Source: Eledone cirrhosa (taxonomy: Eukaryota). From it: DNA of 24,214 bases. The notes under the pieces are model-generated. The model searched no databases, had not been told where the DNA came from, and saw nothing but the letters and a program-made list of their open reading frames with translations. Below are positions 1 through 24,214 of this stretch, piece after piece; the first letter of the stretch is position 1; each line of letters starts with the position of its first letter. The position numbers and the translations under genes were made by a program. The stretch covers positions 1 through 24,214 of the forward strand of contig CAXHJY010001030.1 in NCBI GenBank assembly GCA_964016885.1. The letters are read 5' to 3'.

Positions 1-3000
1 TATATATATATATATATATATATATATATATATATATATATACACACATATATATATATATATATATATATATATATATATATATATACACATATATATA
101 TATATATATATATATACACATATATATATATATATATAACATATATATATATATACACATATATATATATATATATACACATATATATATATATATACAC
201 ATATATATATATATATATAATATATATATATATATATATATATATATATATATACACATATATATATATATATATACACATATATATATATATATACACA
301 TATATATATATATATATATATATATATATAATATATATATATATATATATACACATATATATACACATATATATATATATATATATATATATACATATAT
401 ATATATATATACATATATATATATATATATATATATATATATATATATATACAATATATATATATATATATATATATATATATACACATATATATATATA
501 TATATATATATACACATATATATATATATATATATATATAATATATATATATATATATATATATATATACACATATATATATATATATATATATATATAT
601 ATATATATATACTATATATATATAATATATATATATATATATATATATATATACACATATATATATATATATATATATATATATACACATATATATATAT
701 ATATATATATATATATATATATATACACATATATATATATATATATATAATATATATATATATACACATATATATATATATATATATATATACACATATA
801 TATATATATATATATATATATCACATATATATATATATATATATACACATATATATATATATATATATATATAATATATATACACATATATATATATATA
901 TATATATATATATATACACATATATATATATATATATATATATATATATACACATATATATATATATATATATATATACACTATATATATATATATATAT
1001 ATACACATATATATATATATATATATATATATATACACATATATATATATATATAATATATATATATAATATATATATATATATACACATATATATATAT
1101 ATATATATATATATATATATATATATATATATATACACATATATATATATATATATATATATATATATATACACATATATATATATATATATATATATAT
1201 ATATACAATATATATATATATATATATATATATACACATATATATATATATATATATATACATATATATATATATATATATACACATATATATATATATA
1301 TATATATATATACACATATATATATATATATACACATATATATATATACACATATATATATATATATATATTATATATATATACACATATATATATATAT
1401 AATATATATATACACATATATATATATACTATATATATATAACATATATATATATATATACACATATATATATATATATATATACACATATATATATATA
1501 TATATATATACACATATATATATATATATATATACACATATATATATATATATAATATATATATATACCAATATAATATATATATATATAATATATATAT
1601 ATACATATATATATACTATATATATATATATACACATATATATATATATATATATATATATAATATATATAAATATATATATACACATATATATAAATAT
1701 ATATATATATATATACACATATATATATATATATACACATATATATATATATATATACACATTATATATATATATAGTATACACATATATATATATATAT
1801 ATATACATATATATATATATATATATATATATATATATATATATACACATATATATATATATACATATATATATATATATATACACATATATATATATAA
1901 TATACATATATATATATATATATACACATATATATATATATATACACATATATATATATATACACATATATATAATATATATATATACACATATATATAT
2001 ATATACACATATATATATATATATACACATATATATATATAATATACACATATATATATATATATATACACATATATATATATATATATACACATATATA
2101 TATATATATATACACAATATATATATATATATATATATATATATATATATATACACATATATATATATATATATATATATATATATATACACATATATAT
2201 ATATATATACACATATATATATATATATACACATATATATATATATATACACATATATATATATATATATACACATATATATATATATATACACATATAT
2301 ATATATATATATACACATATATATATATATATATATATATATATATATACACATATATATATATATATATATATACACATATATATATATATATATATAT
2401 ATACACATATATATATATATATATATATATATATATATATACACATATATATATATATATATATATATATATATATACACACATATATATATATATATAT
2501 ATATACACATATATATATATATATATATATATATATATATACACATATATAATATATATATATATATACACACATATATATATATATATATACACATATA
2601 TATATATATATATATACACATATATATATATATATACACATATATATATATATATATATACACATATATATATATATATACACATATATATATATATATA
2701 TACACATATATATATATATATATACACATATATATATATATATATATACACATATATATATATATATATACACATATATATATATATATATATATATATA
2801 TATATACACATATATATATACACATATATATATATATATATATATATATATATATATATATATATATATATATATATATATACACATATATATATATATA
2901 TATACACATATATATATATATACACATATATATATATATACACATATATATATATATATATAATATATATACATATATATATATATATATATATATATAC

Positions 3001-3466
3001 ACATATATATATATATATATATATATACACATATATATATATATATATATATATATATATACACATATATATATATATATATATATATATATATACACAT
3101 ATATATATATATATATATATATATATACACATATATATATATATATATATATATATACACATATATATATATATATATATATATATATACACATATATAT
3201 ATATATATATATATATACACATATATATATATATATATATATATATACACATATATATATATATATATATATATATACACATATATATATATATATATAT
3301 ATATATATATATACACATATATATATATATATATATATATATACACATATATATATATATATATATATATATATACACATATATATATATATATATATAT
3401 ATATATATACACATATATATATATATATATATATATATACACATATATATATATATATATATATAT
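1..3466. repeat. Compound (TA)n-CACA satellite, array A (CACA on + strand)
   Basis: (TA)n runs interrupted by CACA about every 20-36 bp (28-36 bp in 3000-3440). Many single-base irregularities in the first ~2.1 kb. Confidence 0.97.
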
Positions 3467-3652
3467 ATATTGTTATATTTGGGGAGGGTCATATTTGCGT
3501 AATATTGCCAGAATTAATAACAGAACACACTCACTGTTTGGTTGGTTTTCGCTTCTCGCTGTCTTTTATATATATATATCTGCGATCTAACTTACTCGGT
3601 CCTCAATGTTGCCATTGACTGACCGGCGGTCAAAAATAATACAGATACAATA

Positions 3653-3757
3653 TAGACAAACACATATATATATAGTTTACATAAATCTTTCGTTGCACAT
3701 CTGCAACATCGTCAGTGGTGTTATATTCATTGTTCCTCCTGTTGTGTTGTATGTCTA
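3653..3757 (-). ncRNA. Candidate hammerhead ribozyme, PLE-1 left-arm copy
   Basis: Mirror image of 8882-8986; core at 3682-3715. Confidence 0.5.
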
Positions 3758-4001
3758 CGCCATTTTTTTTTTTTTTTTTGTTCAGTCTGTCTATATATTT
3801 ATTTATTTATTTGCTTGTTTGTTTATCTTATTTTATTTTGTCTTCTTTGCGCATGCGTTTGCGTGTGTGTATAGTGTTATGTGTGATGTGTGATGTGTGA
3901 CTAGTGTGTATAGTGTTGTCTGCTGGGTGACTAGTGTGTGTTTATGTGCTTGTGTATGTATTTATTTATCTTATTTTATTTAATTTAATTTACTTATTTA
4001 T

Positions 4002-21422: not shown

Positions 21423-21946
21423 TGGGTCAACATTCATTACAGAATTTAGAGTGGCAGTACACACTTCGAGATTACATTTATATTAATAGGTACAATCAAA
21501 AAAATCAAAGATATAGGTTAAAGTACAACATGAAGATAAGTGGTTATATAGTGCAAATGTTATATGTGTGGCACGCATGTGCGTCTTGTTTATATAGTGT
21601 GGCAGAGAGATATGTGTGGTAGAGGCACTTAGGTAGGTAAATAAGAGTGTTAGGTTGGTAGATCTGGTGGCAAAGTCTTTATATGATTGATATAGTCTGT
21701 GTGTGGAGAAATATTATAAGCATTAAAGATAGTGCAAGCATTAAAAGTGTTATAAGTATTGGAGATGCACAGCGCAGGGATGTCAAGTAATTCATGTACT
21801 TCGGTATTTTCATGGTCAAGGGAGTGTATATTTCGATTATATGCCTTTCACATAATCCACGACAATCCAGTTAGAGATCGTAGTCTGGTGCTCTTTAGTT
21901 CGATACAGGTGGTTGTTACGTTTCGAGAGACGCCATTGAATATTCA

Positions 21947-22817
21947 ATATATATATATATGTGTGTATATATATATATATATATATATATGTGTATATAT
22001 ATATATATATATATATATATATATATATATATATATATGTGTATATATATATATATGTGTATATATATGTGTATATATATATATATGTGTATATATATAT
22101 ATATATATATATATATATATATATATATGTGTATATATATATATATATATATATATGCGTATATATATATATATATATATATATATATATATATATATAT
22201 ATATATATATATATATGTATATATATATATATATATATATGTGTATATATATATATATATATATGTATATATATATATATATATATATATATATATATAT
22301 ATATATATATACATATATATATATATATATATATATATATATATATATACACATATATATATATATATATATATATATATATATATACACATATATATAT
22401 ATATATATATATATATATATATATATATATATATACACATATATATATATATATACACATATATATATATATATATATATATATATATATATATACACAC
22501 ATATATATATATATATATATATATATATATATATATATATATACACATATATATATATATATATATATACACATATATATATATATATATATACACATAT
22601 ATATATATATATATATATATATACACATATATATATATATATATATATACACATATATATATATATATATATATATATACACATATATATATATATATAT
22701 ATATATATATATATATATATATATATATATATACATATATATATATATATATATATATATATATATATACATATATATATATATATATATATATATATAT
22801 ATATATATATATACACA
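21947..22817. repeat. (TA)n satellite, array D, with an internal polarity switch (TGTG units then CACA units)
   Basis: G interruptions up to 22265, C interruptions from 22312. Confidence 0.95.
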
Positions 22818-22818
22818 A

Positions 22819-23370
22819 GCTAAGGGCAAAGGTGAAAAGCGAAATCACCTTCCGAAGGAGAACCAAGCGCAGAGGGACCAGTGGACAACTGTTCAAAGAA
22901 AGAACAGAAAGCACCGAGACACTGGGAGCAAAAAACACCAAGTAATGTGCAAGTTTTTCAAGAACGGGACATGCTGGTATGGAGAGACAGGGATGGGATG
23001 CAGATTCGCCCACCCTAGGTCTCAAACGAACTATGCCCATCATACTCGCGCAACATGCCCCAGCCAAAGCCGAAATAAGCCGCTCCAGAAGTATGCTGAT
23101 GTCGCGCGTGCTGCACCAACAAGGAGAAGGCACGCACATGCCGACGAGATACAGATGGCAGCAGCAGATCAGAAAAATTTTTTAGTGATGGCCGAGAAGA
23201 TTGTGGGACAGCTGACCTGGCTGCATCGTCTCCAGAGCCAGGGTCATCCACACCAGCACTCGAGACCACCGCAGTTAAGGGACCCAGAGTGGCCGCCGCT
23301 GACACCAGACCAGGTGTCATACCGACAGCCATTACTGGCACCCCAAAAGTCACACCAGTGCTGCTGCTGA
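22819..23370 (+). CDS. LINE ORF1 C-terminal fragment with CCCH zinc finger
   Basis: [22 protein letters not shown] (C-x7-C-x8-C-x3-H, 22948-23013), basic region, P/Q-rich tail, stop TGA 23368-23370. Confidence 0.75.
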
Positions 23371-24214
23371 ATGTCAGGGGCCTGGTGAAACTCAGCAACA
23401 TGAGTAAAATTTCCTACCTGGGAGACTTAGCCATAAGCAATCAAGCACTATGCATGGCACTAACCGAAACGCACCTGACAAGCAGTATAGCAGATGCAGA
23501 AATACATATACCGAAATATACTGTATTTCGTTCGGACAGGAAGGAGAGAACTCATGGTGGGGTTGCTCTGTATATCCGTGAAGATGTCACACCAATTGTT
23601 CTGTTGACACATTCAAACTCAGTCTGTGACACACTGATAATACATATGAAGCAACTACAGACGGTAATATGTGTCACATATCGGCCGCCCGATGCCCCCA
23701 GTCATGAGGGTAAATTTGAGGATAGCCTAAGTAGGATAGAAGAGGTCCTTGACAAACTGGACCAGGGTCTCAACATCCTACTGCTGGGAGACTTCAACCT
23801 ACCAAAGGTCAAATGGCCTGAGGGCCACCTCCTCCCTGGAATGACGTCAATAGAACAGAGACAGACGGAATCCCTGCTGGCCCTCACACACAGGCTGTTC
23901 ATGGAGCAAGCAATACTCCTCCCAACAAGAGGCGAAAATGTCCTGGACCTCTGTTTTACAAACAACGAAGTGCTCATCCACAATGTAAAGGTGACACCAA
24001 CAATTCTCTCGGATCATAACTTGGTAGAGCTAATGATATGTGGTCCAAGAGAACCAACAGAGACAAAACCACCAAGAAGCTCCGGGACGCTATCCAGCCT
24101 TAACTTCTACGGGGCTGACTGGAAGAAGATTAAGAGTGAAATCCGGAAGCAAACATGGAGTGCAAACATCGCCACACAAGACACTAACACACAATTTCAA
24201 CACTTCATGACAAC
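23100..24214 (+). CDS. LINE ORF2 N-terminus: apurinic-like (APE/EEP) endonuclease, partial; absent from the ORF track
   Basis: My translation gives [59 protein letters not shown]. The frame opens after TGA 23097-23099 and has no stop to the window end; first ATG is at 23400. Confidence 0.92.
23175..23184 (+). promoter_or_regulatory. Candidate -1 ribosomal frameshift slippery site (A AAU UUU overlapping U UUU UUA)
   Basis: In ORF1 phase (AAA AAT TTT TTA), inside the ORF1/ORF2 overlap; ORF2 is in the -1 frame. Confidence 0.6.

What the first reader, a model, noticed from the sequence alone, without database searches (positions are those of the whole stretch)
1..24214. A TA-satellite landing zone holding hammerhead-bearing Penelope-like elements as giant inverted repeats
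Seen: every non-satellite block begins and ends in (TA)n-CACA satellite where its ends are visible. Two unrelated PLE families each sit as a multi-kb inverted repeat with hammerheads at the outer ends, and a third hammerhead segment and a LINE follow. Established: EN+ PLEs show microsatellite insertion bias, inverted 5'-truncated structures and pLTR hammerheads. Inference: several retroelement families share this satellite as a target, and transcription through it would give kb-scale hairpin RNAs. One read-through transcript carries only the downstream hammerhead in sense orientation, so it could be self-trimmed at its 3' side.
Basis: partly seen in the sequence, partly recalled or inferred. 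Interest (0 to 1): 0.75.

Follow-up and report, generated by a model that had tools for sequence, protein, structure and literature searches.

The report
Two-ended Penelope insertions in TA repeats
This stretch is a TA repeat hit by four young jumping-gene families that all insert into TA runs, which is known behaviour; the useful part is that their back-to-back insertions almost always pair one long end with one short end, which likely means both cut DNA ends start the copying.

Summary
The anatomy is real. The window is a whole 24-kb contig: a polar (TA)n array split by a Neptune-like Penelope-like element (PLE-1, 5.7-kb palindrome), a Hydra-clade PLE (PLE-2, 9.5-kb inverted repeat, 994-nt spacer), the 3' end of a second Hydra-clade PLE and a 5'-truncated LINE. 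All three PLEs carry type I hammerhead motifs. TA targeting, inverted arms, one-sided tails and hammerheads are in print. The target is plain (TA)n, not the CACA satellite: 162 of 165 PLE ends abut TA (background 8.9%), only 8 of 165 abut CACA-type arrays. The hairpin-RNA idea is untested. Self-trimming is unlikely, because the hammerhead would pair with the upstream arm. What this adds: 75 of 78 resolved inverted insertions, in three families of two clades, have one tailed and one tail-less outer end. Either arm can be the longer, so in many neither arm is a copy of the other. This fits priming from both cut DNA ends at two fixed RNA start sites better than the self-priming model in print. 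The scan noted the same rule on other DNA before (e1-9091577, e1-8671668; unchecked notes).

The parts
1..3466 (.). (TA)n array with CA/CACA interruptions, CA polarity on +
   Evidence: 103 TACACA, 0 TGTGTA
3467..6325 (-). PLE-1 left arm, 5'-truncated, tail-less ('short') outer end; 1-nt frameshift near 5938, 9-nt duplication near 6293
3680..3717 (-). PLE-1 hammerhead motif, mirror copy
   Evidence: (core at 3715), coordinates mirrored
6322..9215 (+). PLE-1 right arm (Neptune-like): C-terminal RT, CX4CxxC linker and GIY-YIG-type endonuclease, frame open to 8637; pLTR; tailed ('long') end
8922..8959 (+). PLE-1 type I hammerhead variant: 6-bp helix II with 5' bulge, near-palindromic short helix III, 2-bp helix I
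   Evidence: (33 of 34 copies identical)
9173..9215 (+). PLE-1 tail, present on this arm only
9216..9659 (.). (TA)n-CACA array
9660..14012 (-). PLE-2 left arm with 135-nt tail (9660-9794), hammerhead mirror 10003-9849, microsatellite-rich 3' UTR, endonuclease end of ORF
14013..19197 (+). PLE-2 right arm (Hydra clade): 994-nt single-copy spacer 14013-15006 joined by a 3-nt microhomology, ORF to 15523, about 3.7-kb 3' UTR, tail-less end
18989..19143 (+). PLE-2 type I hammerhead motif: 10-bp helix I, 116-nt helix II region, palindromic helix III
19198..21080 (.). (TA)n-CACA array
21081..21947 (-). 3' 865 nt of PLE-3 (Hydra clade, 4,201-nt unit, 832-aa frame elsewhere), tailed end at 21081, 6-nt fold-back at its 5' junction
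21285..21331 (-). PLE-3 type I hammerhead motif with a U4-to-C core change (CCGAAGA), 4-bp helix I, palindromic helix III
   Evidence: (77 of 82 matches identical)
21948..22813 (.). (TA)n array; polarity reversed (GT) over about 21948-22300, then CA
22814..24214 (+). 5'-truncated LINE: end of ORF1 (CCCH finger) and APE endonuclease of ORF2; runs off the contig

Best explanation
The window is a long TA array that received four independent insertions from young TA-targeting retroelement families, and each Penelope-like inverted repeat was likely written by two reverse transcriptions, one primed from each cut DNA end at a different fixed site on the element RNA. Shown: TA flanks; two fixed 3' end classes per family; one tailed plus one tail-less end per inverted insertion; independent 5' truncation of the arms; short microhomology at the centre; arms closer to each other than to other copies. 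Inferred: the GIY-YIG endonuclease cuts both strands in (TA)n; one 3' end primes at the downstream site (arm with tail) and the other at the upstream site (arm without); the two cDNAs stop independently or run off the same RNA end, and are joined by microhomology repair. Use of a single RNA molecule by a dimeric enzyme is inferred and least sure. The hammerheads are ordinary pLTR passengers and are predicted to be silent in a read-through hairpin.
For: End rule: PLE-1 41 of 42 resolved inverted insertions, PLE-2 16 of 18, PLE-3 18 of 18; 75 of 78, P 3e-19 against a 50:50 null. No tail-to-tail pair among 101, 117 and 40 clusters. The tail-less arm reaches more than 40 nt further 5' in 10 of 28 PLE-1 and 3 of 18 PLE-3 insertions, and in the window's PLE-2 (135-nt tail on one arm, 994-nt spacer on the other). 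There each arm holds sequence that the other lacks, so neither is a fold-back copy of the other. Some inverted arms are the tail alone (L231, L241). Junction overlap or gap of 11 nt or less in 18 of 21 PLE-1 loci. Within pairs 33 substitutions in 39.4 kb (0.84/kb) against a median of 2.6/kb between pairs (18 pairs); L250 carries one private nested insert in both arms. Near-symmetric junctions 6 of 20 against 0.33 expected. In vitro an Anolis Poseidon PLE cuts and extends both strands, starts at two sites that bound the tail, and is predicted to be a dimer (PMC11167929). Satellite polarity is continuous across the inserts.
Against: Three exceptions: PLE-2 L142 and a small palindrome in L242 (short/short), and one PLE-1 long/long pair found by a targeted search. 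PMC11167929 saw no difference in start site between the two strands in vitro, so the one-of-each rule has no biochemical basis yet. It also found no homology between start site and target, whereas these ends overlap TA by 2-4 nt. There is no fixed order of arm lengths, so one enzyme simply trailing another on one template does not explain it. In 3 of 18 PLE-1 pairs the arms differ more than the median between pairs (L125, L138 near it; L141 above it). Arm identity could also come from gene conversion or from one source locus. Near-symmetric junctions fit fold-back equally well. Many PLE-1 copies have no inverted arm (11 of 19 unselected). Target-site duplications cannot be read in TA. The window is an unplaced contig whose junctions occur once in the assembly; no reads were available to check it.
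Confidence: 0.65

Rival explanations
1. Fold-back (self-priming): one cDNA is made, snaps back on itself and is copied; the endonuclease then trims the second arm at the upstream site. PMC3846280 proposes self-priming for the palindromic junctions.
For: 6 of 20 PLE-1 junctions are symmetric within 40 nt. The window's PLE-1 centre sits on a native 4-nt palindrome. The arms share variants. A 6-nt fold-back sits at the PLE-3 5' junction.
Against: It predicts that the tailed arm always reaches further 5'. The tail-less arm does so in 13 of 46 scored PLE-1 and PLE-3 insertions and in the window's PLE-2. Tail-only arms sit opposite long tail-less arms. It may still explain a subset.
Confidence: 0.15
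2. Two separate RNA molecules from one source locus, each on one subunit of an asymmetric complex, rather than one shared RNA; the two-ended priming is otherwise the same.
For: No fixed order of arm lengths; a few pairs differ by 2.6-4.2 substitutions/kb.
Against: The excess of near-symmetric junctions, including L168 and L174, where the junction is symmetric in tandem arrays, is simpler with one RNA end.
Confidence: 0.1
3. One reading: a dedicated TA-CACA landing pad whose read-through transcripts form kb-long hairpins trimmed by the downstream hammerhead, feeding small-RNA silencing.
For: The arms are nearly perfect, so any read-through RNA would fold. The window is 26% (TA)6+ against 5.6% in 200 kb of background. 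LINE and PLE-1 copies co-occur within 15 kb in 2 of 45 cases against 0.17 expected (P 0.013). A. vaga PLEs give small RNAs (PMC3846280).
Against: CACA-type arrays flank only 8 of 165 PLE ends. A large TA array is simply a large target. The hammerhead is outcompeted by arm pairing. No promoter or transcript is known here.
Confidence: 0.06
4. Library or assembly artefact (fold-back chimeras) on a small unplaced contig.
For: The window is a whole 24,214-bp contig; both junctions are single-copy in the assembly; the PLE-1 arms have no substitutions.
Against: There are two centres. Satellite polarity is not mirrored. The arms are non-nested. The same layout and end classes recur on chromosome-scale contigs.
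Confidence: 0.04

Closest known systems
Complex insertions of endonuclease-positive PLEs: inverted 5'-truncated copy plus a one-sided 30-40 bp tail (PMC8557442 Fig. 2 legend; Pen2a_Av in PMC3846280)
   Same: Partial tandems, head-to-head inverted arms, tail at one end, pLTR hammerheads, microhomology junctions.
   Different: Tails here are 41-58 nt (PLE-1), 135 nt (PLE-2) and 165 nt (PLE-3). The papers call the tail optional or often one-sided; here it is counted as 75 of 78 one-of-each, on either arm.
Hydra clade PLEs, including Hydra-1_Obim (PMC8557442 section 11 and supplement)
   Same: PLE-2 and PLE-3: RW[K/R], DKT, CxCX5C linker, no CCHH, CxxC and CxH around the E and N residues, (TA)n insertion, type I hammerhead.
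   Different: RWR for RWK. Units of about 6.4-7 kb (PLE-2, with a 3.7-kb microsatellite-rich UTR) and 4.2 kb (PLE-3), against under 3 kb reported. Hammerhead variants (116-nt helix II region; U4C core).
Neptune clade PLEs (CX2-5CxxC linker, microsatellite bias; as summarised in PMC8557442)
   Same: PLE-1: C-terminal endonuclease, CX4CxxC linker, DKS at the DKG position, TA insertion.
   Different: Clade not tested on a tree (Nematis shares the linker). It has an Asn-rich insert in the N-terminal part, like A. vaga Penelopes.
Poseidon PAc of Anolis, in vitro (PMC11167929)
   Same: Two start sites bounding the tail, both strands cut and extended, ends downstream of the hammerhead cut.
   Different: No strand difference in start site and no target homology in vitro; here the two ends of one insertion use different sites and overlap TA by 2-4 nt.
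L1 twin priming (recalled, not from a call)
   Same: Both target ends prime cDNA, leaving an inverted part.
   Different: In L1 the second primer lands far upstream, so little is duplicated; here both start near the 3' end, giving kb-long inverted duplications.
CR1-group LINEs (clade recalled from motifs; CR1 families listed as recently active in O. vulgaris in PMC13282606)
   Same: ORF1 with Myb-like and CCCH motifs, APE-RT ORF2, short tandem repeat at the 3' end.
   Different: Strong bias to long TA arrays; clade not tested.

Membership tests
EN+ Penelope-like element | Single ORF with RT and C-terminal GIY-YIG endonuclease | tested here: met
   Frames of 1,217, 830 and 832 aa with Y[VR]DD and VY..YIG/YVG motifs. 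Pfam support is weak: RVT_1 E 1.7e-4 for PLE-1, GIY-YIG E 0.009 for PLE-2, none for the PLE-1 endonuclease or PLE-3.
EN+ Penelope-like element | Tandem or partial-tandem copies forming pLTRs; inverted 5'-truncated copy; optional tail | tested here: met
   Units of about 4.1 kb, 6.4-7 kb and 4,201 nt; inverted arms and two end classes.
EN+ Penelope-like element | Type I hammerhead in the pLTR | tested here: met
   motif level only.
Hammerhead ribozyme | Self-cleavage | not testable with these tools
   No assay. PLE-1 has a 2-bp helix I, PLE-2 lacks the G10.1-C11.1 pair, PLE-3 has U4C.
Hydra clade (PLE-2, PLE-3) | CxCX5C linker, DKT, RWK, no CCHH, flanking CxxC and CxH | tested here: met
   (linker in both; RWR for RWK; ADKT in PLE-3; SDKT read from the printed PLE-2 frame); matches the Hydra alignment rows seen.
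Hydra clade (PLE-2, PLE-3) | Generally short (<3 kb) | tested here: not met
   Units 4.2 kb and 6.4-7 kb; a typical, not a defining, trait.
Hydra clade (PLE-2, PLE-3) | Placement in the Hydra clade on an RT tree | not tested
   No reference sequences were held as loci.
Neptune clade (PLE-1) | CX2-5CxxC linker before the endonuclease | tested here: met
   CTNRKCIIC; shared with Nematis.
Neptune clade (PLE-1) | Placement on an RT tree | not tested
   Filed as Neptune-like only.
Naiad/Chlamys | N-terminal endonuclease, no canonical hammerhead | tested here: not met
   The endonuclease is C-terminal in all three.
Non-LTR retrozyme (third segment) | Non-coding tandem unit with hammerhead | tested here: not met
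   The segment is the 3' end of a coding 4,201-nt PLE unit.
APE-type LINE | ORF1 plus APE-RT ORF2, 5' truncation, fixed 3' end | tested here: met
   0 of 20 copies inverted.
CR1-group LINE | RT phylogeny | not tested
   Name recalled from motifs.

The most novel reading that the evidence does not exclude
Penelope-like elements integrate by obligate asymmetric twin priming: a dimeric RT-endonuclease primes both ends of a double-strand cut, always one at each of two fixed start sites on the same RNA. The 'tail' and the inverted pLTR are then one signature, the rule holds across distant clades (Neptune-like and Hydra, tails of 41-165 nt), and the self-priming model is not needed.
Probability: 0.5. 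Interest if true: 0.68.

Novelty: new member of a known kind. Interest (0 to 1): 0.42.

Why it matters
How PLEs make their tandem and inverted insertions is named as unresolved in PMC8557442 and PMC11167929. A near-strict one-tail-per-insertion rule with non-nested arms separates the models, and gives a direct prediction for the existing in vitro system. The three families are young, have intact frames and many copies (1,567 exact matches to one PLE-1 end motif), so they suit a genome-wide census. The locus itself is an ordinary pile-up of TA-targeting elements.

Tried and rejected
Rfam gave no hammerhead; its miRNA matches are hairpin or microsatellite noise below gathering score. Expression: no RNA holder listed, so the hairpin-RNA and small-RNA ideas were not tested. 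Contigs of four coded runs were laid on 6400-9213: they show the family at 90-100% likeness but cannot test junctions or expression. GAAACGTA at 21908-21934 was first taken for half a hammerhead and rejected, since no core lies upstream in 30 loci. An intron inside the PLE-2 long helix II was considered by eye and not pursued. An 8-mer shared by the three 3' regions has null P 0.025, was found after the fact and sits at no fixed distance from the ends; not counted. The element writing the satellite itself was rejected, because interruption type and polarity continue across insertions. A duplicate of the window's junctions elsewhere in the assembly was sought and not found. The PLE-1 hammerhead fold could not be given an energy (2-nt loop). 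The end-linked hairpin of earlier notes was not tested beyond single folds. No tree, structure or complex prediction was run.
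Full report
Setting. The window is the whole of contig G000:C1057 (24,214 bp) in a 3.0-Gb, 1,796-contig animal assembly. An octopod host is my guess from the repeat landscape (recalled) and earlier notes; it was not determined. (TA)6+ runs make up 26% of the window against 5.6% of 20 evenly placed 10-kb background stretches.

Anatomy. 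PLE-1 is a palindrome (3467-9215). Its arms have no substitutions, one 1-nt indel and a 9-nt duplication, and meet at a native TGCA. The right arm keeps an open frame with RT, a CX4CxxC linker and a GIY-YIG-type endonuclease; a full copy has a 1,217-aa stop-to-stop frame. PLE-2 (9660-19197) has a 994-nt spacer joined by a 3-nt microhomology; its full frame is 830 aa. The third block (21081-21947, minus) is the last 865 nt of a third family, PLE-3, with 57 exact matches to a 27-nt probe, a 4,201-nt unit and an 832-aa frame, 41% identical to PLE-2. PLE-2 and PLE-3 carry the Hydra-clade motifs listed in PMC8557442 section 11. A homologue search with PLE-3 gave 820 proteins at E 1e-30 or better among 7,994 scored, mostly unnamed. 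The last block is a LINE truncated in ORF1; one copy is about 4.85 kb and starts and ends in TA.

Hammerheads. Rfam gives none. A descriptor gives one type I motif per family, mirrored in the inverted arms: 3 hits against 0.017 expected, with the caveat that the descriptor followed the motifs. PLE-1 resembles the D. virilis variant described in PMC4209133 (2-bp helix I, 6-bp helix II with a 5' bulge). PLE-2 has a 10-bp helix I and a 116-nt helix II region, kept in all 23 matches. PLE-3 has a U4C core in all 82 matches (overlapping loci included). Insertion ends lie 46-273 nt downstream of the predicted cut, so the copied RNA was not cut there, in line with PMC11167929. In a read-through RNA the motif competes with a perfect complement (-245 vs -48, -67 vs -8 kcal/mol), so self-trimming is unlikely.

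Target. 162 of 165 distinct PLE outer ends and 20 of 20 LINE 3' ends are followed by TA-rich sequence, as are 19 of 20 LINE 5' ends, against 8.9% of background positions. Two or more CACA-type units occur at 8 of 165 PLE ends and 8 of 20 LINE ends. The median flank array is 56-122 nt for PLE ends and 815 nt for LINE ends, against 39 nt expected for a random point in background arrays. So the PLEs sample (TA)n broadly and only the LINE leans to long arrays. TA insertion is in print for Hydra, Naiad and Neptune elements (PMC8557442). LINE and PLE-1 copies co-occur modestly (2 of 45 against 0.17).

How common is inversion? The searches list only the best 150 matches. Among them, tail-out pairs form 35 of 101 PLE-1 and 20 of 117 PLE-2 clusters, and 11 of 40 PLE-3 clusters (all 57 matches); there is no tail-in pair. 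Of loci fetched without selection for inversion, 8 of 19 scorable PLE-1 (20 fetched), 9 of 10 PLE-2 and 8 of 9 PLE-3 had an inverted arm. My hand estimate is about 60%, 90% and 90%. The LINE had none in 20.

The end rule. Each family has two classes of 3' end. PLE-1 ends at 9172, or at 9215-9230 in window terms. PLE-2 ends with or without 135 nt, PLE-3 with or without 165 nt. I then searched for counter-examples among the first 100 of 1,567 tail-bearing matches and fetched the 4 suspicious places. They held 5 insertions: 4 conformed and 1 was long/long, beside a duplicate of itself that conformed. PLE-2: 23 insertions in 21 loci, of which 1 solo, 4 unresolved and 16 of 18 one-of-each. PLE-3: 20 loci, 1 solo, 1 unscorable, 18 of 18. 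Total 75 of 78. Dropped before counting: a small second PLE-1 insertion in L236, and the partly covered L018, L020 and L027. Tallies were read by hand from these outputs.

What the rule means. The tailed arm reaches further 5' in 12 of 28 PLE-1 and 13 of 18 PLE-3 cases, the tail-less arm in 10 and 3, and they end within 40 nt in 6 and 2. When the tail-less arm is longer, as in the window's PLE-2, each arm has sequence that the other lacks, so a fold-back copy cannot give it. Arms of a pair are closer (0.84 substitutions/kb) than arms of different pairs (median 2.6), and L250 has one private insert in both arms. Near-symmetric junctions are in excess (6 of 20 against 0.33), which fits either both cDNAs leaving one RNA end or a fold-back subset. 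With the in vitro facts of PMC11167929 (both strands cut and extended, two start sites bounding the tail, predicted dimer), I rate two-ended priming at 0.65. Against it: three exceptions, no strand difference in start site in vitro, no fixed order of arm lengths, and many solo PLE-1 copies.

Artefact check. The junctions are single-copy and no reads were available. But polarity is not mirrored around the centres, the arms are non-nested and the layout recurs on chromosome-scale contigs.

Literature seen. PMC8557442: abstract, passages, section 11, supplement hits. PMC4209133: parts 1-2 of 4. PMC11167929: parts 1-2 of 4, supplement not seen. PMC3846280, PMC8969392, PMC13282606: passages. bioRxiv 10.64898/2026.07.22.740005: part 1 of 5; its supplements are closed and may bear on hammerhead variants. 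PMC4486113: listing only. Arkhipova 2006 and Pyatkov 2004 were not seen, only cited by the above; they may already discuss tail pairing. Eight searches showed no paper that counts one-tail-per-insertion or proposes twin priming for PLEs; the one-sided tail itself is in print. I reached the end rule before consulting earlier scan notes, which report it in other genomes and for retrozymes in this one. These are unchecked and not independent support.

Verdict. Real; known kinds of element; new families. The landing-zone and hairpin-RNA framing adds little. The end rule is a testable clue to an open mechanism. Interest 0.42.

Noticed in passing
window 21942-22300: A 6-nt fold-back at the PLE-3 5' junction is followed by about 350 nt of satellite in reversed polarity; possibly a template switch onto target DNA. 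Unexplained.
   Followed up: partly
window 22814-24214; L182-L201: The LINE family sits in very long TA arrays (median 815 nt on the 3' side against 39 expected), with TA at both ends and never inverted: a LINE apparently biased to long arrays.
   Followed up: partly
window 18989-19143: Hammerhead with a 116-nt helix II region and no G10.1-C11.1 pair, conserved across copies; standard descriptors and Rfam miss it.
   Followed up: partly
window 21285-21331 (-): Hammerhead with a fixed U4-to-C core change in all 82 matches; a minor variant changes both sides of the helix III palindrome.
   Followed up: partly
window 6400-8600: PLE-1 words are held by runs of at least 12 coded organisms at share 0.22-0.89; four laid runs show 90-100% likeness. 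Close relatives or horizontal spread; relatedness unknown.
   Followed up: partly
L250 (445-667 and 10936-11158 of the joined stretch): A 223-nt PLE-2 tailed end nested in the 3' UTR of PLE-2, present in both arms of one inverted insertion.
   Followed up: partly
L142 and L133: Flanking host sequence is mirrored on both sides of the insertion; L142 is also a short/short exception, so it may be a larger inverted duplication or an assembly error.
   Followed up: no
L264-L265 (G000:C1:36133900-36145000): Two copies of one PLE-1 insertion 9.5 kb apart with the same junction but different right ends.
   Followed up: partly
L269-L270 (G000:C1:181290996-181312500): Another multi-family site: LINE, a PLE-1 inverted tandem array and a PLE-3 end within about 22 kb.
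   Followed up: no
window 15524-19197: PLE-2 carries a 3.7-kb 3' UTR made largely of TA/CA microsatellite; it is itself a target for insertions.
   Followed up: no
L126 (full PLE-1 frame): A long Asn-rich in-frame segment in the N-terminal part, like those in Adineta vaga Penelopes.
   Followed up: no
window 9031-9038, PLE-2 tail, PLE-3 tail: One 8-mer is shared by the three 3' regions (null P 0.025), at no fixed distance from the ends.
   Followed up: yes
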